DNA of 62,104 bases, counting the filler, from Hausera hauseri (lineage: Eukaryota), in assembly GCA_046269625.1 (NCBI GenBank). It is 11 parts of 11 records of this genome, joined end to end, with 100 filler letters (N's around TTAATTAATTAA, not from the genome) between each part and the next. Parts side by side here need not be neighbours in the genome. Positions count along the whole stretch, not along the records: positions 37,484 to 43,406 come from JBJURY010167641.1; 10 more parts are not named here. The stretch is one strand, 5' to 3'. Each line of letters opens with the position of its first letter. The first letter of the stretch is position 1. A program made the translations under genes and the position numbers. Shown in pieces: positions 32,798 through 61,381 of this stretch. The notes under the pieces are model-generated. The model was not told the DNA's origin and ran no database searches. It was given only the letters and a program-made list of their open reading frames with translations.

Positions 32798-35700
32798 TAT
32801 AATCTCTTGATTTTGGTCGATTGAACTTTTCTTCGGATCGTCGGAAACTGACCAGTGTCCATTCGACTATTTCTTGTTTATCCAAATCGGGTACTACAGT
32901 CTTTTTGTATTGTCTTTTGAGTTGAATTCTAACTTGGATATCCAAGGGAATTGTCAGCCTCTTAGTGCCATTCTTCGACTGAAATATTGGGGCTAGATAT
33001 CTGCAGATAGTGTGGTCTTCTCTGGTATATCCGTTTCCATTTACAATTCTTTTAGGAACGGTAGATACATAAAATATAGCTTCCTTGATTTTTCCTTTGC
33101 TATAGTACTTGCCATGACAAGGATTCTTTTATATTCTTTCACTTAACCGAATTCTGTAACGATAATTGGGGTATCTTCTTNNNNNNNNNNTTCCCAGTTT
33201 TTCCGAAGAACGTTGACTTCCGTCTTGAGGGATTTGGATTTAGTAATTTTCAACTGCTTGTCGCTGTTTTCTTTTTTCTTGGTTTGATATTTCTTTCTGA
33301 TCGTTCATGGTATTCATTCTTCATATAATTCCTTGGCTATTTCCCAACACTTGTGTAACCTCGTTTGCAATACTTCGACGAAATTTTGTTCTAAATCTTT
33401 CGTTTGTGTTGTGAATGGAATCAGTCCTAAATCTGTAGGGAGCACTACTTCTCTGCCGTACATCATGAAAAACGGAGTGAATCCTGTCGCGGGATGTGGA
33501 GTAGTATTAATGGCAAACTGTGTACCTTCTAAGAACTCATCTCAATCTTTCTGGTCCTTTGCAACCACTGTCGATAAGATCCGTATAACCGTCGCGTTCA
33601 TCCGCTCGACCATTCCATTACATTGGGAATGATAAGCTGTGGTAGTTAATCGTTCAATCTCAAAAATTTTGGTAACTTTGTCGAACAATTCGCTCGTGAA
33701 GTTTCTTCCTCGGTCTGTCAAAATTTGTTTGGGTGGCCCGTATCTACAAATAATCTTCCGAACTACTACTTTTGCCAGAGTCTCGGCCTTTTGGTCTATT
33801 AACGCTATAAGCTCTACGAAATGAGTTAATTGGTTTACACAAGTCAAAATATATTTGTTTTTATGGGTTGTAGGTATTGGTCCTACAATATCCATAGACA
33901 TTGCTTGCGTTGGTCTATCGGGGACGTCGATAGACTTAAGTTCGGCGACGTAGTTTTTCACTTTCCTCTGTTTGGTTGCGCATACTTCGCAAGCGTTCAC
34001 CCAATTTCTCACGTCGATGTAGATGCTTGGCCAATAATATTTATTTAATATTCTTTCCAATGTCTTTTTTCATGACATGTATCCGGCCAGATATGAATAG
34101 TGTTCGGCCATGAGTACTTCTGTACGCAATCCTTTTGGTATGATTACTAATTTTCGTCCCTTCCGTTTGTAGTATAACACGTTTTCATGGTTCAAATCTC
34201 CAACGACGCATTATTTTTGACTATATCGTCGTAGGTGTTTCCGTAACTGATTACCCTTGGGGGTTACGTTGGTGTCGACGAACTCGATAATTTGTTGTAT
34301 AACCTTATCTTTTCTCTGTTCGACAGAAATTCTCAATGCCTTATCTAGCGTCAGAGTCCGTTGTCTCTCCACTAAATCTTCAAGGTGGGCTTTCCTCATT
34401 ACTGTAACTGCGCTTGTTTTGATTTTAAGTCTCGACAATGCGTCGGCATCAACATGCCTGTTTCCAGGTTTATATTGGAATTCAATATTATAACGTGAGA
34501 TTTCCTCAATCCATCTGTTAAGTCTACACGTTGGATTATTTGCTCTACCCTTCAAAGTCGTAACTTCTTTATGATCAGTAACGATTACGATCTTCTGTCC
34601 GTATACATACACGTTAAAATGTCGCAAGGCTTCTTTCACCGCTAACGTTTCCAACTCCATTACTGAATAGTTCTTCTTAACTTTCTTTAGTGAAAGCCCT
34701 CCATATGCAATCGGGTGTTCTAGCTCTTCGTCTTCCCGTTTCTGAGCTAATTTATATCCGATACCTTCTTTACTGGCGTCTGTTTTGATTATGAACGGTA
34801 GGTTGAAGTCTGGATACCTTAAAACAGGTGCACTAGTTAGAATTTTTTTCATTTCGTCGAAAGCCTTTTGTTCGACGTCGGTCCATTTCCATTTGATTCC
34901 CTTCAATAAACGATACAAAGGTGCGTTTATCTTCGCATTGTCTGGTATGTAAGTAGCATAATACCCACATAATCCTAACCAGTGTCTTAATTCCTTCTGA
35001 TTCTGAGGTTCCATGCAGTCCGATATCTTACTCAATAATGATTTATCCGGTTTCGATCCTCCTTCTCCAACTATATGTCCAAGGTACGACACAGCATTCT
35101 GAGCTTATTTGTATTTCTTGGGATTCAGTTTTAGTCCAGCTTGTTCCAGCCTCATGAATGTACCTTCCATGTCCTTTAAGTGATCCTCTTCCATCTTCGA
35201 CGCAATCATGACGTCGTCCAAGTAAGCGAACGCGTGTTCCAGTCCCATCAGCATTTGGTTTATCATGCGGGTGAAGATGGATGATCCGGTGGTTATCCCG
35301 AATGGCATAACGTTGAATTCGTATATGCCGTCGTGTCTTAAATGCCGTCTTATATCGGTCTTCCTCCTCTATCTTTACTTGCCAATATCCGGATTGCAAG
35401 TCAAGAGTGGTAAACCATTTAGCTCCAGAGTCTGTCCAAAGCTTCCTTTACCAATGGTAACGGAAAAGCGTCTTTCATCATAAGTGTGTTTAGCGCTCGA
35501 TAGTCGATACAAAATCAGTGCTTAGTAGTACCTTTCTTCTTAACCATAAGTATAGGCGAGTACCAAGATCGGTAGCGTGGTCTAATTATGTCGGCCTTTA
35601 ACATTCGTTCAACTTCCTTGGTTATCTTTGGCCTTAGCGAGTGTGGAGGCGGGTACCATTTCGGCATCTTTTGATCCTCCAAATCTATTTCATCTTTCCA

Positions 35701-37383
35701 TCCAGGTTTTTTCTTAAGTGGAATCGTGAGTCTTAAAATCTTGGCTCGGCCAATATCTTCATCTTTCGCGATAATTGAGCTATAACGTCAAAATAAGTCG
35801 TAAAATTGGCAGTAAGATTCCGGCGAGAAATTAATCTCAACGTGAGGTGGGAATTCGGCACCCTTATACGGTTTCTCTTCTATAGTAATTGAGGATACTG
35901 TATACGTGTGTTTCAAAGTGGTATTGGCGTACAGTTTGGTCGGAGTGGGTGCATTATTCGCTATTCTGATTGTTAAGCGGCCTGTTGATACTCTTGTCAA
36001 AACATTGCTGAGTACAAGGTTTGGATTAAGCGATTCTTTCGGCTCGAAATATACTGGCTGATCGTCATCTTGACGTATTTGGGCATATATGAGTACTTCC
36101 GTTCTGGGCGGTATGTTTTCATCTACTGGGATCCACACTTCTCCGAACTTCCTTTCTTTAATGGTTTTAATACCTTTTATTGGGCCAAGTTCTATCAACT
36201 TGCCTGCATTGAAATCGATTGCTATATTGGGTATTTGTTTCAATAAGTCGCATCCTAATACCACATCATCCGTTAACTCTTCCATTGCTGAAAATTCATG
36301 GTGAGAAGATTGTCCCATTATGTGAATTTCTGGCTTCCATCGGAATTTACTTTTCGATGATTGTCCGAAAGCTCCGATACTTCCTGGATCCGTCGTACCA
36401 GGCGGATACAATTACTTCCGTATGAATGGCGGTATTGAATCATATTTTATTAGGGATATTTCGGATCCTGTGTCTATCAGCGCATATACTTCCCAATCTT
36501 CTAATTGAATTTTTCCAAAGGGCCGTCCTTCGATTATCGTACCGTAATAGTTTGCCACATGAGGGCGTCGGATCGTGGACACTTTGTAACCATTAATGGT
36601 GACTTCCGTGGTTCCGACTGGCTGGTCAATCAGCTGTCATAATTCTCCGATTGGGTATAGTTCATTAGTCGCGCCGTTCATGTTTTCTATTCCTTGATTT
36701 CTAGCTGGCGGCTGAACTTCTTGGCTTCTCAGATGGTGTGTTTCACGGCTTCCGGTAAATATTGACTGTCTTTTTTGGCTTAGGTACTCTAGGCGAGTAA
36801 AGTATTCTGTGGTCGTCGACTGCTGATCGATAGTGTGGAGCCGAGGTTCTCTCTGTTCCGTGGATCTTACGCAATATCCCATAGCGTTTTGTTTTTTCGT
36901 AAGGATCCTCTAAACTAAACGTCTTCCGGTAGGTGTCTGTCTGGCACGAGCTCGTAGATTGTTTCTCGCAATTTTCATATATAGGTGCTGTTGGCGGCAA
37001 TATTAGTAGTGGTAATTTCATAGCAGAGTCATTTTTGTGCCTACTCGGCCTGGAGATGACGTCTCCTCCCTTAGGCTCGTCTTCATCGGAATTATCTCTT
37101 CATGTTTTACTGACTGAATTTCTGTCTATAATCGAATAGGTGTCTTTTACGTTTTCGGTTATTGTAGCCAACATGTCGCTCCACATCTGTTTTTCATTTA
37201 CTCTCTTCGTAAGTCTTTAAGAATTTACCGAAAGGGGTAATAATAGCCGTTAAGATTTTGCACGAAAATCCTGTCAAAGTGAATATCTCATCCATTTATG
37301 ATCGCTTGAATTATAGCTTTTACCAGTTGAATTAAGAAGTATATCGCTAGAAATCCTGACGCGGCTTGTCCGAATATCAGGAA
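32798..37383 (-). mobile_element. Degenerate Ty3/Gypsy retrotransposon (PR-RT-RH-IN)
   Basis: Protease ALIDTGSEISL (~36450-36490); RT LDLQSGYWQ, MPFG, YLDD (35100-35410); RNase H TDASKEGIG, TDHK, DADALSR; integrase CEVC, MDIVG, LTDRG, NGMVER. Multiple frameshifts. Confidence 0.93.
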
Positions 37384-37483: not shown

Positions 37484-37670
37484 CTTTTCTAAACTACTAC
37501 CTGACAAAGAAAAGAATATGCTGTGTCACTTGAACAGGTACATTTATAGACTGCCAGAATATATACCTGACTCTTTACATCAAGATTTTAAAGTTACCAA
37601 AGATCTTATTCATTGGTCTAAGGACACAGCTCAGGCCATGTTGGCCAACTTTGAAACTTGGTTAAACTGA
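37484..37670 (+). CDS. C-terminal end of ORF1 (continues from 43406 across the terminal overlap)
   Basis: Reads LPEYIPDSLHQDFKVTKDLIHWSKDTAQAMLANFETWLN*; DLIH (37602-37613) is SGNH block V. Confidence 0.88.
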
Positions 37671-39898
37671 GTAGCCCCAGAGGCCCGAATGGGTTGGGGC
37701 CTAGTAAAGGTGTTGTTTTAAATGAAAATATTTACAACCTATCTAAAAACTTTTCGTTGAGCGAAGCACAAAGCTCACTATTAAACAAAGGGCTCACTTT
37801 TATCCCCACCCAGGTCAAAACAGATCATAAAAATGGGATGTTTCAAACCAGGTTTGACCTTCAGAGATATCACAGAAGAGTCAAATTGGCAGTTTATTAC
37901 AAAGAGACCACTACTGCTCCCAGCAATTCTATTTCTCATAAATTTTTACCCGAATCTAATTGGACACCTCCTGATATTATGCTTCCCCCAGAGGTCATAA
38001 CATTGGTTCACAATGACCTGCAGTATTTGGACAAACATTTTAGAATTGTTAAAATCAGACCTAATTTGAGTTCAGCGGAAAACAAAGCTCTCCGTCAACT
38101 AATTGACAATAAAAACATAGTCATCAAACCGGCAGATAAAGGTTCCGCGATCGTCATTATGGATCGAGAACAATATATTTTTGAAGCTAATCGACAACTA
38201 TTTGACACTACCTATTATGAACAAATTGACCAACCAATTTATCTAGAAACCATTCCTATGGTTTCCAAAATAATTGATAATTTGCATAAAAAGAAATTTA
38301 TTACTGCTAAACAAAAAAGCTACCTCTTGGGCTCCTCTGAACCCAGAATGAGGAGATTTTACCTGTTACCTAAAGTCCACAAGGACCCTTCAAAATGGAG
38401 TAAGCCTCACGAAATCCCTCCTGGTCGTCCCATAGTATCTGATTGTGGAAGTGAAACCTATGGAACAGCAGAATTTATCGACCATTTCCTGTATCCGCTG
38501 TCCACGCTCCACAACAGCTACATTAAAGACACTTATGATTTTATAGATAAGATTAAACAAATTACCCTACCCCTTGAATCCATTTTATTCACCATGGATG
38601 TGGATTCGTTATATACTAACATTAAAATTAATCAAGGGTTGGCTGCTATTAAAAACATTTTTCTCAAACACCCAGACAGCAAAAGACCCGACAAAGAACT
38701 CCTCCAGCTCTTAGAAATTAATTTGAAAAGAAATGACTTTCAATTTAATGGCCAATTTTTCCTGCAGATCAAGGGTACCGCTATGGGTAAACGTTTCGCT
38801 CCCTCGTATGCCAACATTTTCATGGCAGCGTGGGAGAACCAAGCTCTTAACGCTTGCAGAAAAAAACCTTTGCATTATTTTAGATATTTAGATGACATCT
38901 GGGGAGTATGGACCTACTCAGAGGCGGATTTTGAGGAGTTCGTTAAAGAACTAAACAACTTCAACCCCTCTATTCAACTCAAGTCTACTAAGAGCGTTAA
39001 AGCTGTAGACTTCCTTGATACCACTACATATAAAGGCAACAAATTCAACACAACACATAAATTGGACATTAAAGTTTATTTCAAACCTACAGACACACAT
39101 GCATTACTCTACAAAACTAGCTTCCATCCCAAACATACTTACGCAGGTCTAATTAAATCACAACTCCTCAGGTTTCATAGAATTTGTACCCTAAGCAGTG
39201 ATTTTGAGGAGGCAGTGGCCGTCCTCTTCGCGGTCTTGGGTAAGAGGGGATATTCCAGATCTTTCCTCCGAGCTTGTAAAAGATCCTTTTTGCAGGCCGG
39301 ACAGCGAGATCCCTCCCCAATGCTCCCCCTGGTGACGACCTACTCCTCCTCAGCCAACCTTCTCATCTGTAATATTAAACAAAATTTCAATAAATTCCAA
39401 TCTGACACCTCCTTGCTTCCTAACCATAGAATAATTGCGGCCTATAAAAGAAACAAAAATTTGAGAGACCTCCTTGTCCAAGCAGAACTTAAACCACTGA
39501 GGGAGGTAAAAACCAAGGGCAAAAAGGAGTTCTTTAAACAGCTACGCTGGGTACAGAATAGGTTTGATAAATCTGTTTACAAACTGGAACAATCAGGTAA
39601 CCCTAAATCCAAAAATTGCATTTATTTAATCACTTGCAAAACATGTGAGATCAATTATGTGGGTGAAACTGGCAACTCCATCCTGACTCGTTTCACCCAA
39701 CACAGATACAATATAGTAAATAAAAAAGATACACACATACCCCTAGTCCAGCATTTTATCCAACATGGCTGGCAGGCGGTATCAGCCACGGTGTTGGAGT
39801 CCAACCTCAGGTGGTCCACAGCCCAAAGAAGGAGAGCAGAAAAAATTTGGATTAGCAGACTCAATACAAGCTTCCCTGGTGGTTTAAATGATCGATAG
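37658..39898 (+). CDS. Penelope-like reverse transcriptase + GIY-YIG endonuclease (intact)
   Basis: IYNLS, LLNKGLTFIP, IKPADKGSAIV, FYLLPKVHK, GRPIVS, MDVDSLYTNI, GTAMG..FAPSYANIFM, RYLDD, VYFKPTD, SFHP; C-terminal CIYLITCKTC..YVGETG..RFTQH..HF..H..E..WI..L.T..P.GLN. Confidence 0.97.
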   Translation: MVKLSSPRGPNGLGPSKGVVLNENIYNLSKNFSLSEAQSSLLNKGLTFIPTQVKTDHKNGMFQTRFDLQRYHRRVKLAVYYKETTTAPSNSISHKFLPESNWTPPDIMLPPEVITLVHNDLQYLDKHFRIVKIRPNLSSAENKALRQLIDNKNIVIKPADKGSAIVIMDREQYIFEANRQLFDTTYYEQIDQPIYLETIPMVSKIIDNLHKKKFITAKQKSYLLGSSEPRMRRFYLLPKVHKDPSKWSKPHEIPPGRPIVSDCGSETYGTAEFIDHFLYPLSTLHNSYIKDTYDFIDKIKQITLPLESILFTMDVDSLYTNIKINQGLAAIKNIFLKHPDSKRPDKELLQLLEINLKRNDFQFNGQFFLQIKGTAMGKRFAPSYANIFMAAWENQALNACRKKPLHYFRYLDDIWGVWTYSEADFEEFVKELNNFNPSIQLKSTKSVKAVDFLDTTTYKGNKFNTTHKLDIKVYFKPTDTHALLYKTSFHPKHTYAGLIKSQLLRFHRICTLSSDFEEAVAVLFAVLGKRGYSRSFLRACKRSFLQAGQRDPSPMLPLVTTYSSSANLLICNIKQNFNKFQSDTSLLPNHRIIAAYKRNKNLRDLLVQAELKPLREVKTKGKKEFFKQLRWVQNRFDKSVYKLEQSGNPKSKNCIYLITCKTCEINYVGETGNSILTRFTQHRYNIVNKKDTHIPLVQHFIQHGWQAVSATVLESNLRWSTAQRRRAEKIWISRLNTSFPGGLNDR
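37661..37703 (+). promoter_or_regulatory. Putative -1 programmed ribosomal frameshift signal (G UUA AAC plus stem-loop)
   Basis: The heptamer sits in the 16-nt ORF1/ORF2 overlap and ORF2 is in the -1 frame. After a 6-nt spacer comes the hairpin GCCCCA-GA-GGCCC-GAAT-GGGTT-GGGGC. Confidence 0.7.
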
Positions 39899-39973
39899 TT
39901 CCTGGGTGGGACTCCCAGTGGGTGCGCCCGTGTATTCAGGGACCTTCTTGCCTTGTGTGAGATGGTCTTTGAC

Positions 39974-40010
39974 GTGAAAGGTCAGCCGCCTCCGGCGGCT
40001 GACTTTCCAC
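39974..40010 (+). other. Strong GC-rich hairpin downstream of ORF2
   Basis: GTCAGCCGCC-TCC-GGCGGCTGAC perfect 10-bp stem, extendable to about 17 bp. Confidence 0.75.
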
Positions 40011-40020
40011 TCTTCTCATC

Positions 40021-40363
40021 CTAACCCTGCCAGTGCCGCCTGCAACAGGTCTCACCCTTGTTTCTTTCTTCCCTGATAACCCCAGGTGTTTTTTATACTA
40101 AAAAACTTCCTAACTCTTAACTCCACCAACCCTAAACTTAACCAGTTGTTAATTAAAACCTAAACCTAACCAACCCAACTCTTTCCCAGGTTTTTATTAA
40201 CCCAAAACTCAACCAACCCTAAGCTTAACCGGTTGTTTATTAGCCCCATAACTTAACCAATCTTAAACCTAACCCTTTGTTTATTAACCCTAAGCTTAAC
40301 CAAACCCAAAACTTAACCTGAACTGAAATAAAAAACGTACTTTACCAGCCCTAATCTTAACCC
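40021..40363. repeat. Degenerate telomere-like repeats (TAACCC / AACCCTAA / CTTAACC)
   Basis: Many TAACC(C) variants arranged in loose units of about 40-45 bp. Confidence 0.7.
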
Positions 40364-40814
40364 TGACTGGTTGTCCTATTGGCCCAAGTTTTTAACTTGT
40401 CTTGGATTTGATGCAGTGTTTTATTTGTTTCATTACTTACGTTGCCCACTAGATGGCAATGTTGCTCTGCGTTGGACAGCTGGATGTCCTCCTTGTAGTC
40501 CTGCTTCCACGTATGACCTGTAAAAAAAGAGAAAAAAAACATTTTTGAGTTACTAGAAGGAACAATAAGAATATAACATTGCTATTTGCACAAACTTTTC
40601 CTGATGTCATTTTGTTTGGTTACTTGAAACCCATTTTTACCCTGCTGGTTCATATTCCACTTGAAGTTCTGATTTGATGTAGTGTTTATGTTTAAGTTCG
40701 TCAGTTGAGACTGTTATTTTCATAGTTATATGTCTTTTATAAGGAACAAGTTGAATGTGATGCCATGGCCCTCAGAAAGGTACAAACTCTTACCTGGCCA
40801 CACCCCCATCCTAG

Positions 40815-40898
40815 GATTGGCAAACACATTACGCTGTAAACCAATCAGGTTACTGTTTTTATTGAAACCCACAATTTGAATGTCTCCCGTATATATAG
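40815..40898 (+). promoter_or_regulatory. Pol II promoter-like region (inverted CCAAT, CCAAT, TATA)
   Basis: GATTGG at ~40815, CCAATCAG at 40841, TATATATAG at ~40890, upstream of the ribozyme and ORF1. Confidence 0.55.
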
Positions 40899-40925
40899 TG
40901 AGACTGTGACTGTTAGAACTTCCTT

Positions 40926-40989
40926 AACAGCATTTTTTTACCTGATGAAGGTCCACAGAGGACCGAAACGTTGTAAACTGAATGCTGTT
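40926..40989 (+). ncRNA. Minimal type I hammerhead ribozyme
   Basis: CTGATGA (40942-40948), stem II GGTCC/GGACC, GAAAC-GTT, stem I TTTAC/GTAAA, and distal stem AACAGCATT/AATGCTGTT. Predicted cleavage after 40972. Confidence 0.9.
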
Positions 40990-41119
40990 TCCCTGTAAAT
41001 ATTGTACATAGTTATTATTAAAAAGCCAAACGGCACTAAAACAAGCTACAATTCTCATTTTTATTCACTTTTTGAATTTTTAGTAAGAGTCCAAACAATT
41101 TAATATTTTTTGAGTTGAA

Positions 41120-43406
41120 ATGGCTGACGACTACGATGAGCCAGGCTGGACCAGAGTTAGCTACAGGAGAGGACGACGACGTCGTTTCAACGGTCACCAA
41201 CAGCCGAATGAGAGTCCCAGGAGATCTGAATGGAGGAGTCGTGACCGTCCGACCTCCAGACCCACACGTAGGAGCTACGCTTCTGTGACCCGTGGACGCC
41301 CTGCTCAACGTTGGACGAACCGAGGGGACAGGAGCCGCGGTGCAGACTCCTATCCCACCCGGAGCTTTAACCCCTCGTTAACCCGCAGACGCTCCCCTCA
41401 GCACTGGACGTCCCGAGATGACAGACGTGATGGGGACTGGTACCCCTCCCGTGACTTTGGCACCTCGGCGACCCGCAGACGCTACAGGAGTCCAGATGGA
41501 GACAGGTATCCCACCCGGAGCTTCAGCGTCTCATCGAACCACGGACGTCCCCACCAGCACTGGAGGACCCGTGAGGACAGGAGTCGAGTTTCAGGCAGGT
41601 ACCGTCCCGGTGGCCCCTCACAACAAAACCGAGGGTACCATCGTCGGGACCACCAGCAGAACGGCAGCACGGCTCGACACGGAGCGCTACAGCGCCGACG
41701 GCAGAACCACAGAAGGAACGGAGACCCTCCCCGTCACAGAGAACCACAACACCGACGCCACGTTAACCCCCCTAATTCATCTCGCCCAGCACAACCACAA
41801 CAACGCTCGGAGGATCCAAACTTCACCAAGAAGGTCAGAGCTATATATAGCATGCTAAGAGCCAAACATCACCTAAATAACGTGTCTGACGACGAACACC
41901 TGCCTCCAGCGATTCAGCGCATCACCCAGCACCTAGGGTCGGTCATCAAACCAGCACAACCGAGCGTAAAAACATCTGACCTTATTGCTGGGAACGCTAG
42001 GTTTTGGGCGTTGAACACTCTTCACATTCTCAGACAGCACTACCAAGACCAGATGCAGGCTGATAAACAGTTTCTCCTCCAACTTGGGGGTGATTTCCTT
42101 GCTCCTTCTGAGGTTGCTGCTAAGTGGGCAAGGCAGAATTTGGGTAAGCGATTCTCTTCACGAACCCCTGATGCTGTCATGGACTATTTGTTTACAGAGG
42201 AGGTGATGACGCAATCACCCGTCGCCGCAGCGGAGGCGCATAACGATGACGCGCCTCCCACCCAAAACTCTAATTTTGAACAAAATCAAGACAGTTCGCT
42301 ACCCACACTTCCTCCTTTGCTTTCAACCGAACCAGACATCACCTCAACACCATCATCTGCTCACCTGGAACAGCAACCACCGCTTTTAGACACGGACGTG
42401 GATGTCAACAACAGGCCGGAGCCCACATCGACACGCCCACCTTCGACTGCTGCTTCTCCCTCACCTCAACATGAACCCACCTCTAAAACTACAGTGACTG
42501 TGACTGACCTCATCCAATCCTCCGTTTCCTCATCTTTCTCCGGAGACGAGGGACCCAGCACGCTTCTTCACCCCGGCCAGCGACCAGCACACGTCCAGTT
42601 TCCCACACCACTGCCACTTCCGCAACGAGTAACGAACTCCGCCCACAAGTCTGCTGGTACCATCGTGACTGATAGGATGACGTCAGAGGCTCCACCCCGC
42701 ACTCCTCAAATGTCAACACTCATCACAGCTGGAGGTGATCTTGCTTGTTTGGAAGACTTTATAGTCATCCCTCCGCTTCCTGCTCCTCTTTCTTCACCTC
42801 CTCAACCACCTGTTCCTGTAAATCTACCTAACACACCCAAATCAAAGAGAATGAAGCTGCAGCATAGACTGAAGACCAGCACTCAGAGAAAAATTAATTT
42901 TAAAAGGCATACCCCTGTTTATGCCTGGAAAAAGAGAAACATTGCTGAAGCCACTGACATTCCTCCCCATCACAAGGTAAAACTTTCATCATTCCAACAC
43001 AAAAGATCATTCAATAAACCACACGATTGGAGTATCAGATTAGATTCCAAAAAGGTTATCATTGGTGACTCGAATGTGAGCAGACTCCCAGTTCACAAAA
43101 ACAATCCTGACCTGGTTGTTCACTCTTATCCCGGCGCAAAGTGGCAACACTTTGCCACCCTCTTCCACAAAGCTGACATCATGCCAAGGGTCGAACGCAT
43201 GATCATCTCTCTGGGAATTAACAACAGATCCCAGGGAGATGAGAACTCTTTGATTAATGAAGTCAGTGAGACTCTTCAGATAGCTAAGGCTAAGTGTCCT
43301 AATGCTCAAATCTTTGTGCCTTCAGTTCACTTTTCTAAACTACTACCTGACAAAGAAAAGAATATGCTGTGTCACTTGAACAGGTACATTTATAGACTGC
43401 CAGAAT
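41120..43406 (+). CDS. PLE ORF1: Arg-rich region, helical domain, Pro/Ser/Thr linker, SGNH/GDSL esterase (798 aa when closed through 37670)
   Basis: ATG at 41120; VIIGDSN (block I, 43064), YPGA (II), LGINN (III), DLIH (V, after the wrap). Confidence 0.88.
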
Positions 43407-43506: not shown

Positions 43507-46500
43507 ACGAACAAATGAACGAAGTAACGAAGTAACGAACGAAAGAACGAACGAAAGAATGAATAAACGAATGAGAGAACGAAGAAACGAAAGAACGAAT
43601 GAAAGAATGAATGAACGAACAAATGAACGAAGTAACGAAGTAACGAACGAAAGAACGAACGAAAGAATGAATAAACGAATGAGAGAACGAAGAAACGAAA
43701 GAACGAATGAAAGAATGAATGAACGAACAAATGAACGAAGTAACGAAGTAACGAACGAAAGAACGAACGAAAGAATGAATAAACGAATGAGAGAACGAAA
43801 GAAAGAAAGAACGAACGAAAAACGAAGGAACAAACGAAGGAAAGAATGAACAAAAAAACGAACGAAAGAACGGACGAAAAAACGAACGAACGAAAGAACG
43901 AACGAAAGAAAGAATGAAAGAACGAATGAACGAACAAACGAACGAATGAATGAAAGAAAGAATGAACAAAATACGAAAGAAAGAAAGAAAGAACGAAAGA
44001 ACGAATAAATGTAGGAACGAACGAACCAGCCAAAAAATGAAAGAAGGAAAGAACGAACGAATGAACTAACGAATGAACGAACGAACGAAGGAAAGAAAGC
44101 TTTAAAGAACGAACGAACGAACGAAAGAACGAAGAAACGAAAGAACGAATGAAAGAATGAATGAACGAACAAATGAACGAACGAAGGAACGAAAGAAAGA
44201 AGGGAAGAACGAAAGAATGAAGGAAAGAACGAACGAATGAACGAACGAAGGAACGAAAGAACGAATGAACGAACGAACGAACGAACGAACGAACGAAAGA
44301 AGGGAGGAACAAACGAAAGAACGAACTAAAGAATGAAGAAACGAAAGAACGAATGAAAGAATGAATGAACGAACAAATGAACGAAGGAACGAAGGAACGA
44401 ACGAAAGAAAGAATGAAAGAACGAAGGAACGAAAGAAAGCATAAAAGAACGAACGAAAGAATGAAAGAAGGAACGAATGAAAGAATGAAAGAACGAATGA
44501 GACAACGAACGAAAGAACGAACGAATGAAAGAACGAATGAAAGCATGACAGAAAGAAAGAAAGAACGAAGGAAAAAACGAACGAACCAAAGAACGAACGA
44601 AATAATAAAGGAAAGAACGAAAGAATGAACGAACGAAGGAAAGAAAGAACGAACGAACCAAAGAAGGAACGAACGAACGAAAGGACGAACGAAGGAAGGA
44701 ACGAAAGAACGAAGGAAAGAACGAAGGAACGAACGAACGAATGAGAGAACGAACGAAAGAAAGAACGAACGAAAGAACGAAGGGACAAATGAACGAAAGA
44801 ATGAACAAAAAACGAACGAAAGAACGAATGAATGTACGAACGAACGAACGAGCCAAAGGATGAAAGAAGGAACGAACGAACGAATGAACGAACGAACGAA
44901 GGAAAGAAAGCATTAAAGAACGAACGAACAAACGAAGCAAGGAACGAAAGAACGAACGAAAGAACGAAGAAACGAAAGAACGAATAAATGAATGAATGAA
45001 CGAACAAATGAACGAAGAAACGAAGGAACGAACGAAAGAACGAACGAACAAAAGAACGAACGAACGAAAGAACGAAAGGACGAACGAAGGAACAAAAGAA
45101 CGAACGAACCAAAGAAGGAAAGAAGGAACGAACGAACGAAAGGACGAACGAAGGAAGGAACGACCGAACGAAGGAAAGAACGAAGGAACGAACGAACGAA
45201 TGAGAGAATTAACGAAAAAAAGAACGAATGAAAGAACGAAGGGACAAATGAACGAAAGAATGAACGAAAAAAAGAACGGAAGAACGGACGTAAAAAGGAA
45301 CGAACTTACAACCGAAAAAACGAAAGAAATAACCAATTAAGGAAAGAAAGCATGAAAGAACGAACGAACGAACGGAGCCAGGAACGAAAGAACGAAAGAA
45401 AGAACGAAAAAACGAAAGAACGAACGAAAGAATGAATGAAAGAACGAACTATAGAAAGCATTAAAGAACAAACGAACGAACGAATGAATGAATAAAAGAA
45501 CGAACGAAAGAATGAAAAAAAGAACGAACGAACGAACGAATGAACGAACGAAAAAACGAACGAACGAACGAACAAACGAAAGAAAGAATGAAAGAACGAA
45601 TGAACGAACAAACAAACGAATGAATGAACGAAAGAACGAACGAATGAAAGAAGGAACGATCGATAGAAGGAAGGAACGAACTAAAGAACGAACGAAAGCA
45701 CGTAAGAACCAAGGAACGAACGAATGAACAAACGAACGAAGGGAAAAAAGCACGAAAGAACGTGCGAACGAACGAAGCAAGGAACGAAAGAACGAACGAA
45801 AGAACGAAGAATGAATGAACGAACAAGTGAACGAAGGAACAAACGAAAGAAAGAATGAAAGAACGAACGAACGAAAGAAAGCATGAAAGAACGAACGAAA
45901 GAATGAATAAACGAACGAACGAACGAACGAACGAAAGAACGAAAAAATGAACGAACGAACGAACGAACGAAAGAAAGACTGAAAGAACAAATGAACGAAT
46001 GAGTGTACGAACGAACGAACGAGCCAAAGAATGAAAGATGGAACGAAGGAACGAATGAACGAACGAATGAACGAACGAACGAATGAAGGAATAAAAGAAG
46101 GAATGGAAGAATGAACAAAATTGCGAACGAACGAACGAAAGAACGAACGAAAAAACGAACGAAGAAAAGAAGCAACGAACGAACGAAAGAACGAACGAAA
46201 GCACACAAGAAGGAACGAAAGAACGAACGAAGGAACGAACGAAAGAACGAATGAACGAAAGAAAGATCGAACGAACAAATTAACGAGTGAACAAACGAAC
46301 GATCGAACGAACAATGGAATGAACGAACAAAAGAACGAAAGAACGAATGACCGAATAACGAACCAACGAAAGAAAGAAGGAACGAACGAACGAACGAATG
46401 AAAGAACGAACGAACGAACGAATGAAGGAATAAAATAACGAACGAAAAAATGAACAAAGGAACGAAACAAAGAACGAATGAACGAATGAAAGAACTAATG

Positions 46501-49489
46501 AAGGAAAGAAAGCATGAAAGAACGAACGAACGAACGAAGTATAGAACGAAAGAACGAAGGAAAGAAAGAAGAAACGAAAGAACGAACGAAAGAAAGAATG
46601 AACGAACGAATGAATGAACGAAAGAATGAACAAAAAACGAACGAAAGAAAGAAAGAACGAAAGAACGAATGAATGTACGAACGAACGAACGAGCCAAAGA
46701 ATGAAAGAAGGAAAGAACGATCGAATGAACGAACGAATGAAAGCATGAAAGAACGAAAGAAAGAACGAAGGAACGAACGAATGAACGAAAGAACGATCGA
46801 ATGAACGAAAGAAAGAACGAACGAAAGAAGGCAGGAAAGAACGAATGAATGAATGAGGAAACGAAAGAAAGAACGAACGAACGATTGAAATAAAGAAAGA
46901 AAGAAAGAAAGAAAGAACGAAGAAAAGAATGAAGGAACGAAAAAAGGAACAAATGAACGAACAAAAAAGGAACGAAAGAACGAACGAAAGAACGAAGGAA
47001 TGAACGAACGAACGATCGAAAGAGCAATGGAATGAACGAACGAAAGATCGAAAGAAAGATCGAACGAACGAATGAACGAACTATCGAACCAAAGAAGGAA
47101 CGAACGAACGAACGAATGAAAGAACGAATAAACGAACAAATGAAAGAAAGAACTAACGAAGGAAAAAACAAACGAAAGAAGGAACGAAAGAACGAACGAA
47201 AGAACGAAAGATCGAACTAACAAACGAACGAAAGAACGAAGGAAAGAAAGGACGAACGGCGGAATGAACAAAAGAGTGAAAGAAAGAACGAATGAACGAA
47301 CGATCGAACGAACGAACGGACTAACGAAAGAACGAACGAACAAAAGAACGAAAGAAAGATCGAACGAACGAATGAACGAACTATTGAACCAAAGAAGGAA
47401 CGAAGGAACGAACGAACGAACGAACGAACGAATGAAAGAACGAATAACCGAACAAATGAAAGAAAGAACTAACGAATGAAGGAACAAACGAAGGAAGGAA
47501 CGAAAGAACGAAGAAACGAAAGAACGAACGAAAGAATGAATGAACAAACAAATGAACGAAGGAAGGAACGTAAGAAAGAATGAAAGAACGAACGAAAGAA
47601 TGAACAAACGAACGAACGAACGTAAGAAAGCATGAAAGAACGAACGAAAGAATGAACAAACGAACGAACGAACGAACGAAAGGTCGAACAAATGAACGAA
47701 CGAATGAAAGCATGAAAGAAGGAAAGAAGGAACGAATGAAGGAACGAACGAAGGAACGAAGGAATGAACGAACGAACGAACGAACGAAAGAAGGAACGAA
47801 GGAAAGAAGGAACGAACGAACGAAAGAACGAACGAAAGCACGCAAGAAGGACCGAAAGAAGGAACGAAGGAACGAACGAAAGAACGAATGAACGAACGAA
47901 AGAACGAACGAACTAACGAAAGAACGTACGAAAGATCGAATGAACAATGGAATGAACGAACAAAAGAACGAAAGAAAGAACGAAAGAACGAATGACCGAA
48001 TAACGAACCAACGAAAGAAAGAAGGAACGAACGAACGAACGAATGAAAAAAAGAACAAACGAACGAATGAAGGAATAAAAGAACGAACGAAAGAATGAAC
48101 AAAAAGCGAACGAAAGAAAGAAAGAACGAAAGAACGAATGAATGTAGGAACAAACGAACGAGCCAAAGGATGAAACAAGGAACGAACGAACGAACGAAAG
48201 AATGAACGAACGAACGAAGGAAAGAAAGCATTAAAGAACGAACGAACGAAAGAAGCAAGGAACGAAAGAACGAAGGAAAGAAAGTAGAAATGAAAGAACG
48301 AACGAAAGAAAGAAAGCATGAAAGAACGAACGAAAGAAAGAATGAAGGAATAAAAGAACGAACGAAAGAATAAAAAAAAGAACGAACGAACGAATGAACG
48401 AACGTAAAAACGAAGGAACGAACGAACGAACGAAAGAAAGAATGAAAGAACGAATGAACGAACAAACGAACGAATGAATGAACGAAAGAATAAACAAAAA
48501 ACGAACGAAAGAAAGAAAGAACGAAAGAAGGAATGAATGTACGAACGAACGAACAAGCCAAAGAATGAAAGACGGAACGAACGAACGAAAGAACGAACAA
48601 ATGAACGAACGAATGAAGGAAAGAAAGCATGAAAGAACGAACGAACAAACGAAGCAAGGAACGAAAGAACGAACGAAAGAACGATCGAATGAACGCAAGA
48701 AAGAACGAAGAAAAGAATGAAGGAACGAAAAAAGGAACAAATGAACGAACTAAAAAGGAACGAAAGAACGGACGAAAGTACGAAGAAACGAACGAAAGAA
48801 CGAACGAATGAACGAACGAACGAACGTTAGAAAGAAGGAAAGAACGAACGAAAGAATGAACAAACGAACGAACGAACGTACGAATAAACGAACGAACGAA
48901 AAAACGAATGAACGGACGAACGAACAAAGGACGAATGAAAGAACGAATGATGGAACAAATGAACGAATGAATGAAGGAAAGAAAGCATGAAAGAACGAAC
49001 GAACAAACGAAGCAAGGAACGAAAGAACGAACGAAAGAACGAAGAAACGAAAGAACGAACGAAAGAATGAATGAACGAACAAATGAACGAAGTAACGAAC
49101 GTAAGAAAGAATGAAAGAACGAACGAAAGAATGAACAAACGAACGAACGTAAGAACGCATGAAAAAACGAACGAAAGAATGAACAAACGAACGAACGAGA
49201 AAACGAATGAACGAACGAACGAACGAAAGGACGAATGAAAGAACGAATGATGGAACAAATGAATGAATGAACGAACGAAAGAACGAAGGAACAAACGAAC
49301 GAAAGAATGAACGAAAGAATGAACAAAAAACGAACGAACGAAAGAAAGAACGAAAGAACGAACGAAAGAATGAACAAACGAACGAACGAACGAGCCAAAG
49401 AATGAAAGAAGCAAAGAACGATCGAATGAACGAACGAATGAAAGCATGAAAGAACGAAAGAAAGAACGAAGGAACGAACGAATGAACGA
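43507..49489. repeat. Complex (GAAC/GAAT/GAAA/GAAG)n satellite, about 6 kb, with higher-order structure
   Basis: The whole contig is GAAN variants; a 108-bp higher-order unit starts at 43521, 43629 and 43737. Confidence 0.97.
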
Positions 49490-54698: not shown

Positions 54699-57600
54699 TT
54701 ATGCTAACTTTCTCACAAGGATATTCATCGTTTCAAGTGCCTGCATATAAGTCCTATTCGCACGTTCACATTCTGATTCCATCTCTGTGGGTTGCACTCC
54801 TCTTTTATTCTTGGCCCTTGGGGTTTTCCCTTGCACCCCTGCTACTACCTGAACTTCATGCACCTCTTTCATTTGTTGTTTTTCTTTTCTGCATTTTTGC
54901 TTTCCACAAGCAGTGTTACTGTCTCTTTTATGTCTCTTCTCGCCCTCCTTCAGGTTAGTTGCATTTTTGCTCCAGCCTTCATTTTTGACTTGGTTCCCTT
55001 TATTTCTTTTTCTTCTTATAGCTGCTGGTGCTTTAATCTTTGCCTTAGGTTCATCTTCATAATCTGTTTCCTCTCCTTCCTGGTATGCCCTTTTTAGGCT
55101 TTCTCGTCTATTTGTTTCCATATCTCCATCTTCTTCACTGGAAGTGCTATACTCCTCTTTTGATGGATCTGAATTGGCCCTGGGTATCATTTCACTCTGA
55201 CTTCCTGATGGCTGACTGCCATTTTCTGATCCTGCCTCTTCTTCTTCATTAACTTCTTGTTTCGCACCTTGTGCACTTACTGCTTGGGTTTCTTGGTTAA
55301 CCCTTTCCTGTTTCTCTACTGTTCTTAATTTTCTCTCCCTAAGCGGCATATCTGATTCATCTGAGGAGTTGTCCCTCACATTTCTATGACGCTTCAACTG
55401 TCTCTGCTTAGCTGCTTCCAGTCTTCGGCTAGCAGCCAATCTAGTATTACGTGCTGGTGGTCTAGACATTGAATCTGTCGAGTCTGACTCCTGTTCAACT
55501 ACCTCCTCAAAATTACTCTCCTCCGATTCGCTGTCTGATGTGAGCTCTCCCGCAATTTCATTTTCTGCATCCTCCTCTACACCATTTTCTTCTTCTATAC
55601 TTAGGTTGGTACCATCTTCCTTGTCACTTTCTTCATCCTCTGTGTTCACATCTGAGTTGTGCATGGCGTTATTACTTTCTTCAACCTCAGTGTTCACATC
55701 TGTGTTGTGCACAGCTTTGTTACTTTCTTCGACCTCAGTGTTCACGTCTGTGTTGTGCACAGCTCTGTTACTTTCTTCAACCTCAGTGTTAACGTCTGTG
55801 CTGTGCGCAACAGACGGAAATGTCACAGGCATATATCCTCCTGCCACCATTGATTCATCCTCTGTATTAGATCTTACGCTATCTTCATTAGTTGACCTGG
55901 TTCGCTCAGTGTCGGAAGTTGATGGGCTAACTACGTAATTAGCTTTTCGTCTTCTTTTCTCTCCCTCCTTTGGTTTTGGTTCTTCCCAATGATGCTCATC
56001 TCTCCTCAAGTGTTCAATATGGGCTTTGGCTTCCTGGCCTGTCCATTGGTTCTTGATTAGGTAACTTACCCGTCCTAATTTCTTGATAACTACATATCCC
56101 TTTATCCAACGTTTGTCCATTTTTGAACTCCTGCGGTGATTTCTATAGTATACCTTATCCCCTATATCAAATTCTTGCATCACTGCATTTTTATCTGCCC
56201 TCCGTTTTTCTCTTTCGAAGGCCTTTTTCATGTTTCTATGGACCCTTTTATGTACTCGATGCATGTCTTGCAACAGTACTTTGTGGAAATCTTCTCCTGC
56301 ATACTTGATGTGTGGTCGCAGTAGTAAATCCATGGGAAGTACTGCGTCTCTCCCATATAACAGTTCAAATGGTGAGTATTTAGTGCTTCTGTTTTCATTC
56401 ATTCGTATTGCGGCCAATGCCTGATTCAAGTATAGGTCCCAATTCCTTTCATTTTCTTGGATGTAAGTGTAAAGAATTTTATAAATAGTAGAATGTTGCC
56501 GTTCATTACGAGCGTTAGCTTGCGGATGATAGTAAGAGGTCGTAACATGCTTTATATTTAACTGCCGCAAGGTATTTTCGAAGGCTTCGCTGACAAATTC
56601 TCGTCCATTGTCTGAAAGTATTACATTCGGACACGAGAAACGAGGTATATAATCATCCACAAGGATGTTAATTATGGTGTTGCTGGTTTTATCCGGTATA
56701 GCATAAGCTTCCGGCCATGCACTGTAGCAGTCGACTATGTGCAGTATGTATTTGTTCCCAGATAGTGTTAACGGGTGAGGTCCCGAAATATCCATACTTA
56801 TTTTCTGCATAGGATAATCTGGCAAATCAGTTGGTTGTAAGGGAGCTTTAAGAGCTCGCATCTTCTGTAACTTGCATGGTTCGCACCGTTGGACATATTC
56901 ATATATATCTTTGACCATATCCTTCCAGAAATATTTCTTTCTAATTGCTTCATACACCTTATCTCTTCCCATGTGGGCATTCTGATCATGAAACTGTTTC
57001 AGCACCCCTTGCTTCAAGTGCTGTGGGATATACTTTTGCAGCTTTGGATCATCATCATTTGTAATGCGATATACTTCATCATCATCGGCCAAGACGATGA
57101 ATTCCTTCCATTTATTTCTTTTATCCTCAATGCCTGACTTAATATCTCTCTTTATTTTCAATATTTTCTCATCCTTTTCTTGCTCCAATTTCATATCAAA
57201 ATCCAACTGCGGTTCATCTGGTTCTGTTGGCACTGTACTCCCTTCTGTGTCCTGTCCTGGTTGGTATAACTGAGGCTGGTTGGAATTTATTATATTAATT
57301 TGAAATGTCCTGTCATCAATATCGGGTGTGCCTTCTCTATTTTCCTCCATTTCTTCTACATCATGTGGTATCCTAGACAATAGATCTGCGCACGTATTCT
57401 CTGGTCCTGGAATGTATTCTATTTGCGCACTGTAACCTTGTAGGTTTAGTACCCAAGTTTGAATTCTCCTGTTGTGGACATCAGATTTTAACCAATTCTT
57501 TAAAGGCATGTGGTCACATTTAATGGTAAACTCTGCATTATGCAAGTAGAAGTTCAATTTCTGTACAGAGTAGTAAATTGCATATGCTTCCTTCTCTACT

Positions 57601-60188: not shown

Positions 60189-61381
60189 TGGTTCGCGTTA
60201 TTACCAATGGTATGGTTTGCATTGTTACCCCCATTCCTATGATAGTTTGTGCCCTGTGGGTTTATGTTTGTTCTACAATTTCGCGCCCAGTGTCCAACCC
60301 CATTGCAGCGGAAACATCTGTTTAGCCCTGCGGCCCTGGCGATTGGATTATGGTGACCCCTCACATTCCCAATCTTACTGTGGTCATGACCTGTTGCTCC
60401 TTCCCTATTCACTGCTTGTACTGCTCTATTTGGTTGTGCCCTATTCACGTTTCTATTTCTGTCCCTGTGGTTGTGTTCATTTCCTCTCCACCTGGGTCTG
60501 AAATGTTCTATGTCCATTGGTTCTTCGGGTCGCATATGCCCATCCATCCTATCTCTGCCCAACCTTAAATTAAATCTTCTGAGGAGGTTTTCCTCGTCTA
60601 TTGCTATCTGCACTGCTTCCTGTAGGGTATTAGGATTCTTTCTCATTAGCATTAATTTCATTTTGGTACTACTTAGCCCATCAATGAATATAGGTACTAA
60701 TGTTTTGTCAACTTCTTCCTGTCGAGGTTCTTGCCCGATATGTGTCTGTTCCCAAACATTTAGTAGCCTGTCATAATAAAGTTGTATGGTTTCCTGTTTC
60801 TCTTGCTTTATTTTTCTTAGCAACATTATGGCGTAGTGTTCGTCAGTAATTTCTGCGTATCTCTTTGTTAGATCCTTCTTTAATTCCAGCCAAGTTTCGT
60901 TCGGATGACTGTCCAACCGCCTTCTTAAGTAGTCTGATACACTACCTTCTGATGCCAGGAATGCTGCATTTTTCTTTTCGTCTTCAGTGGCCTTCGTGAG
61001 GACGAAAAATTTTTCAAGTTGGGACATATACGTAGCAAAGCTCTTAGGTTCCCCCCGAAAACTTGTGACAAAGGCCCTAACATTTTGTTGCCTGGTATTC
61101 TGGTCTAATCTATTGACCATATGCCCCAATGTATCTAATGCTGTTTTAACTACATCTGAGCCCTCCAATGTGTTGGCTGATTGTCCATTATTTTGTTGTA
61201 TGTTTGTTTGTTGTACATTATGCTGTGTCGCCACTGTAATTTCCTGCTGTAACAATTGCTGTTGTTGTACAGGTAGCTGCTGGAATATGTGGTGGATTAG
61301 TTGGTTCATTTGATTTGGAGTGAGCAGTTCTACATCCCCTGGCAATGGGACACTATTAGCTTCCTCGATTCTTGGGTCCAT
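60164..61381 (-). CDS. Ty3/Gypsy Gag with CCHC zinc knuckle
   Basis: Q-rich N-terminus, IKQEKQETIQLY, FIDGL, EEPMDI, CFRCNGVGHWARNC. Confidence 0.95.
   Translation of the reverse strand: MDPRIEEANSVPLPGDVELLTPNQMNQLIHHIFQQLPVQQQQLLQQEITVATQHNVQQTNIQQNNGQSANTLEGSDVVKTALDTLGHMVNRLDQNTRQQNVRAFVTSFRGEPKSFATYMSQLEKFFVLTKATEDEKKNAAFLASEGSVSDYLRRRLDSHPNETWLELKKDLTKRYAEITDEHYAIMLLRKIKQEKQETIQLYYDRLLNVWEQTHIGQEPRQEEVDKTLVPIFIDGLSSTKMKLMLMRKNPNTLQEAVQIAIDEENLLRRFNLRLGRDRMDGHMRPEEPMDIEHFRPRWRGNEHNHRDRNRNVNRAQPNRAVQAVNREGATGHDHSKIGNVRGHHNPIARAAGLNRCFRCNGVGHWARNCRTNINPQGTNYHRNGGNNANHTIGNNANQGNGGPTQ

What the first reader, a model, noticed from the sequence alone, without database searches (positions are those of the whole stretch)
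37484..43406. Self-closing 5,846-bp two-ORF Penelope-like retroelement with a virus-like layout (ORF1 esterase, -1 frameshift, RT/GIY-YIG, hammerhead)
Seen: the contig ends overlap by exactly 77 bp. After closure every module is intact, in the order promoter boxes, hammerhead, 798-aa ORF1, slippery site, RT-EN, hairpin, telomere-like repeats. Established: PLEs typically encode a single RT-GIY-YIG ORF, carry hammerheads in their pseudo-LTRs and often form head-to-tail tandems. Inference: this is a young, probably active element with a gag-pol-like strategy that exists as a tandem array or an extrachromosomal circle; hammerhead cleavage of multimeric transcripts would release unit-length RNA. 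I cannot tell from the sequence whether this lineage is already catalogued.
Basis: partly seen in the sequence, partly recalled or inferred. Interest (0 to 1): 0.88.

Follow-up and report, generated by a model that had tools for sequence, protein, structure and literature searches.

The report
Fish two-gene Penelope-like retrotransposon
This is an intact fish jumping gene of a known type whose apparent circle is probably an assembly effect, but it and its many relatives seem to make their copying enzyme by a virus-style ribosome slip from an upstream lipid-binding gene, which the papers we could search do not describe for them.

Summary
The anatomy is real. The contig ends overlap by exactly 77 bp. 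Closure gives a 5,846-bp unit with TATA/CCAAT boxes, a minimal hammerhead, a 798-aa ORF1 (Arg-rich region, helical domain, SGNH esterase), RT/GIY-YIG in the −1 frame and a weak telomere-like tract. It belongs to a large fish lineage of Neptune-like Penelope-like elements: best RT hits are 53–73% identical, and a published Fundulus Neptune has the same layout by eye. Esterase ORF1s in Neptune elements, minimal hammerheads, tandems and the multimer-cleavage model are already in print. The 77-bp closure is what a k-mer assembler makes of tandem or pseudo-LTR copies, so it is no evidence of a circle. No capsid fold was found. What stands out is the conserved −1 frameshift signal. ORF2 is in −1 behind an in-register slippery heptamer in 5 of 5 loci, 30 of 34 ORF2 homologs carry the matching xK[LI] motif, and 107 of 144 ORF1 homologs have LN at that position. 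All 120 RT homologs lack Neptune's linker zinc finger, and one relative abuts (CCCTAA)n. None of my ten paper searches found this described; Repbase and Dfam were not checked.

The parts
40814..40898 (+). Putative RNA polymerase II promoter: two CCAAT boxes (one reversed) and a TATA box 52 nt upstream of the hammerhead core
   Evidence: boxes at -126, -101 and -52; similar boxes in L004, none in L002; seen by eye in the Fundulus consensus. Function inferred.
40927..40989 (+). Minimal type I hammerhead: core from 40942, 5-bp stem II, palindromic AACGTT in place of helix III, predicted cleavage after 40972, extended stem I
   Evidence: Stems I and II differ in sequence but stay paired in L002, L004, L008 and L016. 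Matches the min-HHR described in PMC4209133.
41120..41809 (+). ORF1 residues 1-230: Arg-rich (25% R) repetitive region, likely RNA binding
   Evidence: composition; internal repeats. Role inferred by analogy to the arginine-rich motif of ZfL2-1 ORF1p (PMC3905857).
41810..42154 (+). ORF1 residues about 231-345: conserved all-helical domain with no assigned fold
   Evidence: Found in 98 of 99 long ORF1 homologs; AlphaFold model pLDDT 94; no Pfam family.
42155..42979 (+). ORF1 residues about 346-620: Pro/Ser/Thr-rich linker
   Evidence: composition; poorly conserved in the alignment.
42980..43406 (+). ORF1 SGNH esterase, first part (blocks I-III: Ser651, Gly672, Asn701); runs off the contig end and continues at 37561
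   Evidence: Profile A3 hits PDB 4C1B 'ORF1-encoded protein' at 9.3e-6; Pfam Lipase_GDSL_2 in 4 of 5 members, below cut-off; Foldseek top hits are PAF-AH and other SGNH hydrolases.
37484..37560 (+). 77-bp duplicate of the contig's last 77 bases (assembly overlap)
37561..37670 (+). End of the ORF1 esterase (Asp777, His780) and ORF1 stop
   Evidence: colinear with L001-L004.
37661..37700 (+). Predicted -1 frameshift signal: in-register heptamer G_TTA_AAC (37661-37667), 6-nt spacer, bulged GC-rich hairpin (37674-37700)
   Evidence: hairpin -16.2 kcal/mol, 2 of 300 shuffles as stable; conservation; no clear pseudoknot.
37655..39898 (+). ORF2: PLE reverse transcriptase plus C-terminal GIY-YIG endonuclease with the CCHH motif; no linker Cys zinc finger
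39974..40010 (+). Strong 3' hairpin, not conserved in L002 or L004
40100..40380 (+). Degenerate C-rich telomere-like (CCCTAA-like) tract with an AATAAA at 40327
   Evidence: similar tracts in L002, L003, L004.

Best explanation
An autonomous, endonuclease-bearing Penelope-like retrotransposon of a fish, from a large Neptune-like sub-lineage with two ORFs. Many near-identical chromosomal copies in head-to-tail or partial tandems (pseudo-LTRs) were collapsed by a k-mer assembler into one loop, hence the 77-bp closure (inferred). A polymerase II promoter just upstream of the hammerhead drives the RNA (inferred). Most ribosomes make the 798-aa ORF1 protein, which would bind RNA through its Arg-rich end, self-associate through the helical domain and reach membranes through the SGNH esterase (domains shown; roles by analogy to ZfL2-1 ORF1p). 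A minority slip -1 at G_TTA_AAC before the hairpin and make a 1,541-aa ORF1-RT-EN fusion, fixing the ratio of packaging protein to enzyme (signal and its conservation shown; slip inferred, about 0.85). Read-through transcripts with two hammerheads may cleave as a dimer or with protein help (known model, untested here). The GIY-YIG domain nicks DNA and RT copies the RNA from the nick (established for PLEs). The C-rich tract may bias priming to telomeric repeats (speculative, about 0.3).
For: Pfam RT and GIY-YIG. At least 2,592 relatives at E<=1e-20 among 7,998 scored candidates; named ones among the best 120 come from Nothobranchius, Oryzias, Tachysurus and Esox. The ORF1 family has 573 clusters at E<=1e-30, and all four SGNH blocks are kept in 132 of the best 150. 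ORF2 is in -1 with an in-register heptamer within the last 5 codons of ORF1 in the window and all four fetched loci that carry ORF1. 30 of 34 ORF2 homologs long enough to test have xK[LI]..P at the same place, 23 of them FKL or VKL, against a background of 35 in 75,633 positions. 107 of 144 anchored ORF1 homologs read LN there and 141 of 144 stop within 7 codons. The first in-frame ATG of ORF2 is at codon 62, past a conserved N-terminal motif. L002 holds two head-to-tail units of period 5,441. L004 and the Fundulus consensus are also circular permutations broken inside ORF1.
Against: No reads, ribosome data or RNA data were available. Three of the five heptamers fit only a relaxed rule that I set after seeing them, and L003 has no downstream structure. 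The protein-level motifs do not show codons, and profile A3 contained the LN end. The L002 copies match at 5,546 of 5,577 positions, with no mismatch after base 501, so the second copy may be assembler unrolling. In the one PLE tested in vitro, hammerhead cleavage needed protein, was dispensable for insertion and left no RNA-seq ends (PMC11167929). An Esox gene model (P0056) shows ORF1 and RT in one frame. The tree was a quick one without named reference clades.
Confidence: 0.75

Rival explanations
1. The contig comes mainly from true extrachromosomal DNA circles (or circular RNA-derived DNA) of the element.
For: Clean closure with no flank. About 22 of the best 120 RT homologs sit on contigs of 5.4-6.35 kb (hand count). 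L002 comes from a record titled as a single-cell whole-genome-amplified isolate, a method that favours circles (recalled). Circular intermediates were proposed in PMC4209133.
Against: The overlap equals a standard k-mer (recalled), and tandem or pseudo-LTR copies give the same loop. Another PLE contig, L016, closes with 99 bp. L002 starts in sequence foreign to the element and its first 501 bp differ from the next copy, so several distinct copies exist. Precedent for collapse in PMC3846280.
Confidence: 0.15
2. ORF2 is expressed without frameshifting: by splicing, reinitiation or an internal start; the heptamer is a by-product of protein constraint on the esterase C-terminus.
For: PLEs can carry spliceosomal introns (PMC4209133). 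P0056 is modelled as one fused protein. The LN end could be a helix cap.
Against: The -1 frame is kept in 5 of 5 loci with stops just before the heptamer in that frame. The xK[LI] motif is conserved in the second frame as well. Spacer and GC stem recur in L002 and, by eye, in Fundulus. No close in-frame 1,300-3,700-aa fusion among 19 longer hits (best 46% identity; weak test).
Confidence: 0.12
3. The lineage is telomere-directed: the C-rich tract pairs with the G-rich chromosome overhang to prime reverse transcription, building arrays at or among telomeric repeats, as in Athena, while keeping its endonuclease.
For: Strand-specific CCCTAA-like tracts after ORF2 in the window and L002-L004 and by eye in Fundulus. 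L002 begins with about 41 nt of near-perfect (CCCTAA)n joined inside the tract. Sturgeon GIY-YIG PLEs bounded by telomere-like repeats (PMC12031113; family not checked). Loss of the linker zinc finger, which has been suggested to help recognise (TA)n targets (PMC8557442).
Against: One junction only, at a contig end. The window's tract has no tandem CCCTAA and is only modestly above shuffles (13 and 28 of 500). The tract is about 600 nt upstream of the predicted cleavage site. No chromosome assemblies could be examined.
Confidence: 0.3
4. A virus-like agent whose ORF1 forms a capsid and spreads between cells.
For: Gag-pol-like frameshift; an esterase whose LINE homolog binds liposomes (PMC3905857).
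Against: No protease, integrase, RNase H or envelope domain in ORF2 or ORF1 by Pfam. Homologs are annotated on fish chromosome-scale sequences.
Confidence: 0.06

Closest known systems
Fundulus repeat.CL27 Neptune (PMC12602865), reported 66% similar to Repbase Neptune-2_GA of stickleback
   Same: By eye on the supplement consensus: 5.6-kb circular permutation, near-identical hammerhead, TATA and CCAAT boxes, SGNH ORF1 ending WLN, G_TTA_AAT + 6 nt + GCCCC stem, RT/GIY-YIG without the linker cysteines, telomere-like tract. The authors place ORF2 among Neptune elements and report 3-4-fold accumulation in hybrids.
   Different: The authors describe only a 420-nt 'ORF1' with no similarity; the main text has no mention of SGNH or frameshift. 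I computed no identity to it.
Neptune1_Ren (sponge, Repbase) and other esterase-bearing Neptune-like PLEs of fish and molluscs
   Same: ORF1 with a C-terminal SGNH esterase (residues 383-538 in Neptune1_Ren; PMC3905857 supplement; PMC5408684).
Canonical Neptune clade (Neptune1_Ap, Neptune-1_Ac, Neptune1_Nv)
   Same: RT followed by GIY-YIG with CCHH; RT motifs resemble the Neptune rows of the PMC8557442 supplement by eye; 34% identical and colinear with L006, which has the finger; minimal hammerhead.
   Different: Lacks the CX2-5CxxC linker zinc finger that defines Neptune (0 of 120 homologs have it); has a long upstream ORF1.
Athena/Coprina EN-minus PLEs and Terminons
   Same: Telomere-like repeats in the 3' region, hammerheads, tandem arrays, GDSL esterase as an accessory ORF. 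The PLE overview legend lists an ORF1 separated by a frameshift and pseudoknot; the legend does not name the clade, and that it is Athena is my recall.
   Different: This element keeps a fused GIY-YIG endonuclease; the stimulator looks like a bulged hairpin, not a pseudoknot.
ZfL2-1 / CR1 / RTEX LINE ORF1p esterases (PDB 4C1B)
   Same: Homologous SGNH domain (E 9.3e-6); self-association domain plus arginine-rich motif plus esterase.
   Different: Different RT and endonuclease class; the N-terminal helical domain shows no match to it.
Poseidon PAc of Anolis (PMC11167929)
   Same: Tandem organisation, hammerhead, RT/GIY-YIG, target-primed mechanism.
   Different: Single ORF; different clade.

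Membership tests
EN+ Penelope-like elements | PLE-type RT with C-terminal GIY-YIG endonuclease | tested here: met
EN+ Penelope-like elements | CCHH zinc motif in the endonuclease | tested here: met
   C661, C664, H700, H704 invariant in 41 aligned sequences.
EN+ Penelope-like elements | Hammerhead motif in the repeated non-coding region | tested here: met
   motif only, cleavage not tested.
EN+ Penelope-like elements | Tandem or partial-tandem insertions forming pseudo-LTRs | tested here: inconclusive
   Self-closing contig and two units in L002 fit, but neither separates tandem from circle; no flanks or reads.
EN+ Penelope-like elements (canonical) | Single ORF | tested here: not met
   Two overlapping ORFs here and in L001-L004. 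Two-ORF exceptions are already published.
Neptune clade | CX2-5CxxC zinc finger in the RT-EN linker | tested here: not met
   No cysteine in the 55 residues before the GIY motif; pattern absent in 120 of 120 homologs, present in L006.
Neptune clade | RT phylogeny within Neptune | tested here: inconclusive
   Quick tree without named reference clades. The published placement of the close Fundulus relative is in Neptune; Neptune is itself paraphyletic in PMC8557442.
Naiad/Chlamys/Hydra | N-terminal GIY-YIG domain | tested here: not met
   GIY-YIG at residues 654-738 of 747.
Athena/Coprina | No endonuclease domain | tested here: not met
Athena/Coprina | Attachment to telomeric overhangs through reverse-complement repeats | tested here: inconclusive
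   Degenerate tract; one telomeric junction in L002.
SGNH hydrolases (ORF1 C-terminal domain) | Catalytic S, G, N, D..H blocks and fold | tested here: met
   the model covered only the 138 residues before the contig end.
SGNH hydrolases (ORF1 C-terminal domain) | Esterase activity | not testable with these tools
   Needs an assay.
-1 programmed ribosomal frameshift signals | In-register slippery heptamer, 5-9-nt spacer, downstream structure, ORF2 in -1 | tested here: met
   The heptamer departs from strict XXX at its first base; that G_UUA_AAC works in equine arteritis virus is recalled.
-1 programmed ribosomal frameshift signals | Trans-frame product made in cells | not testable with these tools
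   Needs a reporter or ribosome profiling.
LTR retrotransposons / retroviruses (gag-pol) | Capsid-fold Gag | tested here: inconclusive
   The helical domain gave no listed capsid match; an unlisted family is not excluded.
LTR retrotransposons / retroviruses (gag-pol) | Protease, RNase H and integrase in pol | tested here: not met
   the gypsy contig in the same window does show them.
Repbase/Dfam family Neptune-2_GA | Sequence similarity to the consensus | not testable with these tools
   Library not available; only indirect, through Fundulus CL27.

The most novel reading that the evidence does not exclude
A large, overlooked fish lineage of endonuclease-bearing Penelope-like elements has replaced Neptune's linker zinc finger with telomere-repeat-guided priming, builds arrays at telomeric repeats (possibly through circular intermediates), and uses a conserved -1 frameshift to make a membrane-binding ORF1 particle, built on a helical domain of unassigned fold, that carries its RT-endonuclease, a retrovirus-like expression plan on a telomerase-related RT.
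Probability: 0.18. Interest if true: 0.8.

Novelty: new variant of a known kind. Interest (0 to 1): 0.47.

Why it matters
If the frameshift is real, hundreds of fish elements annotated as single-ORF PLEs have the wrong protein: the active enzyme would be a 1,500-residue ORF1-RT-EN fusion. That bears on biochemical work with PLEs and on the Fundulus element that multiplies in hybrids. It gives a large natural set of vertebrate -1 frameshift signals and a simple system to test what retroelement esterases do, which is still open. Telomere targeting, if true, would link endonuclease-bearing PLEs to the telomere-attached ones and so to the origin of telomerase. The circle itself carries little weight until reads are examined.

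Tried and rejected
Rfam found no hammerhead in the element (one chance-level hit at E 0.44; none at gathering in the window). Pfam found nothing in ORF1 as a single sequence, and a PDB sequence search with its esterase alone gave only cutinase at E 1.1; the signal came from the profile. The ORF1 helical domain gave no match at E<=0.001 in viral or PDB Foldseek and a best Z of 7.0 to generic helical hairpins among 48,161 chains, which shows neither novelty nor absence of kin. A homodimer prediction for that domain returned no verdict. The Atlas could not be queried, nor cluster membership, so hosts of unnamed homologs stay unknown. The first profile search failed on size. No clear pseudoknot at the frameshift site. 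The 3' hairpin was dropped as a family feature. Bacterial origin of L001-L004 was rejected: they sit among fish proteins in the tree, and such mis-assignment is described in PMC8557442. No other copy of the element lies in the window. The careful tree did not finish and was not rerun. PMC5850863 and PMC1890498, the papers most likely to describe frameshifts in Athena, were not held. Ten paper searches found no description of a -1 frameshift, loss of the linker finger or telomere targeting in fish Neptune elements. Repbase, Dfam, most subscription papers, figure images, one supplement file of PMC3905857, bioRxiv supplements, and the metagenome and viral contig collections stayed unchecked.

Full report
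Setting. The window is a concatenation of unrelated contigs separated by N linkers, so neighbours say nothing about the element. The contig 37484-43406 is the only one of 13 segments with an end overlap, exactly 77 bp. No second copy lies in the window.

Observation. Closing the ends in a script gives 5,846 bp, with ORF1 from 41120 across the join to 37670 (798 aa) and ORF2 at 37655-39898 in the -1 frame. ORF2 has Pfam GIY-YIG and RVT_1 matches; its RT aspartates and CCHH residues are invariant in 41 aligned sequences. The join is correct biologically, because the esterase's catalytic serine and its D..H block lie on either side and four other loci run through without a break. The telomere-like tract is weak by itself (4 exact hexamers; 13 of 500 shuffles reach that, 28 of 500 for the one-mismatch count). 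The 3' hairpin is strong but absent from L002 and L004. Promoter boxes occur in 2 of 3 loci tested.

Family. The RT-EN has at least 2,592 relatives among 7,998 scored candidates; the best 120 are 53-73% identical, with named ones from Nothobranchius, Oryzias, Tachysurus and Esox, plus one filed under a gut bacterium. The host is therefore probably a bony fish (inference). Of 17 loci fetched from prokaryotic genome assemblies, four (L001-L004) carry the same ORF1 esterase upstream of RT; the other 13 are short fragments or more distant PLEs with no ORF1 hit. A quick, midpoint-rooted tree of 27 rows groups the window, L001-L004 and the fish proteins in one clade of 18 (SH-aLRT 99), with the window nearest P0032, P0001 and two Nothobranchius proteins; no named reference clades were available and the careful search did not finish. 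The linker zinc finger that defines Neptune (PMC8557442) is missing in the window and in 120 of 120 homologs, though present in L006, which aligns colinearly at 34%. So it works like a Neptune and is probably derived from one, but it fails one defining feature.

ORF1. It has an Arg-rich N-terminus, a helical domain, a Pro/Ser/Thr linker and a C-terminal SGNH domain. A profile of five esterase domains hits PDB 4C1B at 9.3e-6 (that this is the ZfL2-1 esterase is recalled), a model folds like PAF-AH and other SGNH hydrolases, and 573 protein clusters match at E<=1e-30. All four catalytic blocks are kept in 132 of the best 150. The helical domain occurs in 98 of 99 homologs of 550 residues or more and models confidently (pLDDT 94); it remains unassigned.

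Frameshift. The window has G_TTA_AAC in register at the last two codons of ORF1, a 6-nt spacer and a bulged hairpin. L002 has T_TTA_AAC, a 6-nt spacer and a GCCCC stem; L001 has G_TTA_AAT; L003 has A_AAT_TTC with no downstream structure; L004 has G_GAT_TTA. ORF2 is in -1 in all five. Two of the five fit the strict rule and three a relaxed one set after the fact, which occurs at 32 of 1,502 codon positions in the element. Independent protein evidence: of 119 ORF2 homologs, 102 had the anchor motif and 34 reached far enough upstream; 30 of those 34 show xK[LI]..P at the slip position, 23 as FKL or VKL. Of 150 ORF1 homologs, 144 could be anchored; 107 read LN there and 141 stop within 7 codons. 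The first in-frame ATG of ORF2 falls after a conserved motif. No close in-frame fusion appeared among 19 longer proteins (weak test); one Esox gene model is fused. The predicted product is 1,541 aa. The slip itself is inferred.

Hammerhead. The core at 40942-40972 has an extra base after the first box and a palindrome in place of helix III, the minimal form described for animal PLEs, including fish Neptune elements, as a probable dimer with low activity (PMC4209133). Stems change sequence but stay paired in L002, L004, L008 and L016. Against its necessity, the Anolis Poseidon hammerhead needed protein and was dispensable for insertion in vitro (PMC11167929).

Circle or tandem. An overlap equal to a usual assembler k-mer (77; recalled) marks a loop in the graph, which a circle, a tandem array or collapsed pseudo-LTRs all produce. 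L016 closes with 99 bp, and L004 is a permutation broken in ORF1. PMC3846280 put such contigs down to fused identical copies. L002 holds two units of period 5,441 that match at 5,546 of 5,577 positions, all mismatches lying in the first 501 bases, so it shows at least two distinct copies but may be partly unrolled. Its first 41 bases are near-perfect (CCCTAA)n, unlike the element's own tract: one hint of telomere association. I put chromosomal copies at about 0.85 and circles as the main source at about 0.15.

Prior knowledge. Esterases were reported in PLEs in 2013 (Neptune1_Ren; PMC3905857) and in fish and mollusc Neptune-like elements in 2017 (PMC5408684). The PLE overview legend mentions an ORF1 separated by a frameshift and pseudoknot without naming the clade. 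The Fundulus Neptune CL27, similar to Repbase Neptune-2_GA and accumulating in hybrids (PMC12602865), shows the same layout and frameshift signal when its supplement consensus is read by eye, though the main text does not mention them. Ten searches found no account of the frameshift, the lost finger or telomere bias in these fish elements; Repbase, Dfam and two key papers could not be seen.

What I saw of each paper. PMC8557442: passages, Introduction, supplement passages. Its preprint 10.1101/2021.04.23.441226: passages. PMC4209133 and PMC11167929: parts 1-2 of 4 (20, 24; 38, 100). PMC12602865: passages, supplement passages and part 101 of 400. PMC3905857: passages and one of two supplement files. 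PMC5408684: passages, empty supplement search. PMC12031113: passages and section 3.4. PMC6431247, PMC3846280, PMC5718144 and 10.64898/2026.07.22.740005: passages. No figure images.

Verdict. The element is an intact member of an already catalogued fish lineage, and its self-closure is not evidence of a circle. The lineage-wide frameshift signal, the lost zinc finger, the unassigned ORF1 domain and the telomere hint make it a variant worth describing. Interest 0.47.

Noticed in passing
L002:1-41: Near-perfect (CCCTAA)n joined inside the element's own telomere-like tract; differs from the matching part of the next copy.
   Followed up: partly
window 40445-40460: Match to a CTCF-like motif (consensus recalled) in the non-coding region; a similar motif is visible by eye in the Fundulus consensus; not found in L002 or L004.
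   Followed up: partly
window 40982-41011: Short upstream ORF of 9 codons starting within the 3' arm of hammerhead stem I, before the ORF1 ATG.
   Followed up: no
window 40327: AATAAA after the telomere-like tract, also in L002; transcripts ending there would hold one hammerhead only and could serve as uncleaved mRNA.
   Followed up: no
L001-L004: Fish-type PLEs inside bacterial genome records (Brevinema, Epulonipiscioides, Enterovibrio); probable host contamination.
   Followed up: partly
L016:1-3467: Another PLE contig with a 99-bp end overlap, a minimal hammerhead and a 437-codon upstream ORF unrelated to this ORF1 by tblastn.
   Followed up: no
L012:1-10078: Several PLE copies and several hammerhead motifs in one contig.
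   Followed up: no
L002:5840-6215: A-rich short-period satellite between the telomere-like tract and the hammerhead.
   Followed up: no
window 54699-61405 (-) and 34211-36411 (-): Ty3/gypsy elements: one with gag (413 codons) overlapping a 1,832-codon pol, one fragmented.
   Followed up: no
window 1814-3148, 13125-13916, 21123-22634: Long open frames matching tubulin tyrosine ligase, NUP210 and CEP290 domains; they may come from a second, intron-poor eukaryote in the assembly.
   Followed up: no
window 43507-49489: A whole contig of purine-rich AACG/AAAG-type simple repeats.
   Followed up: no
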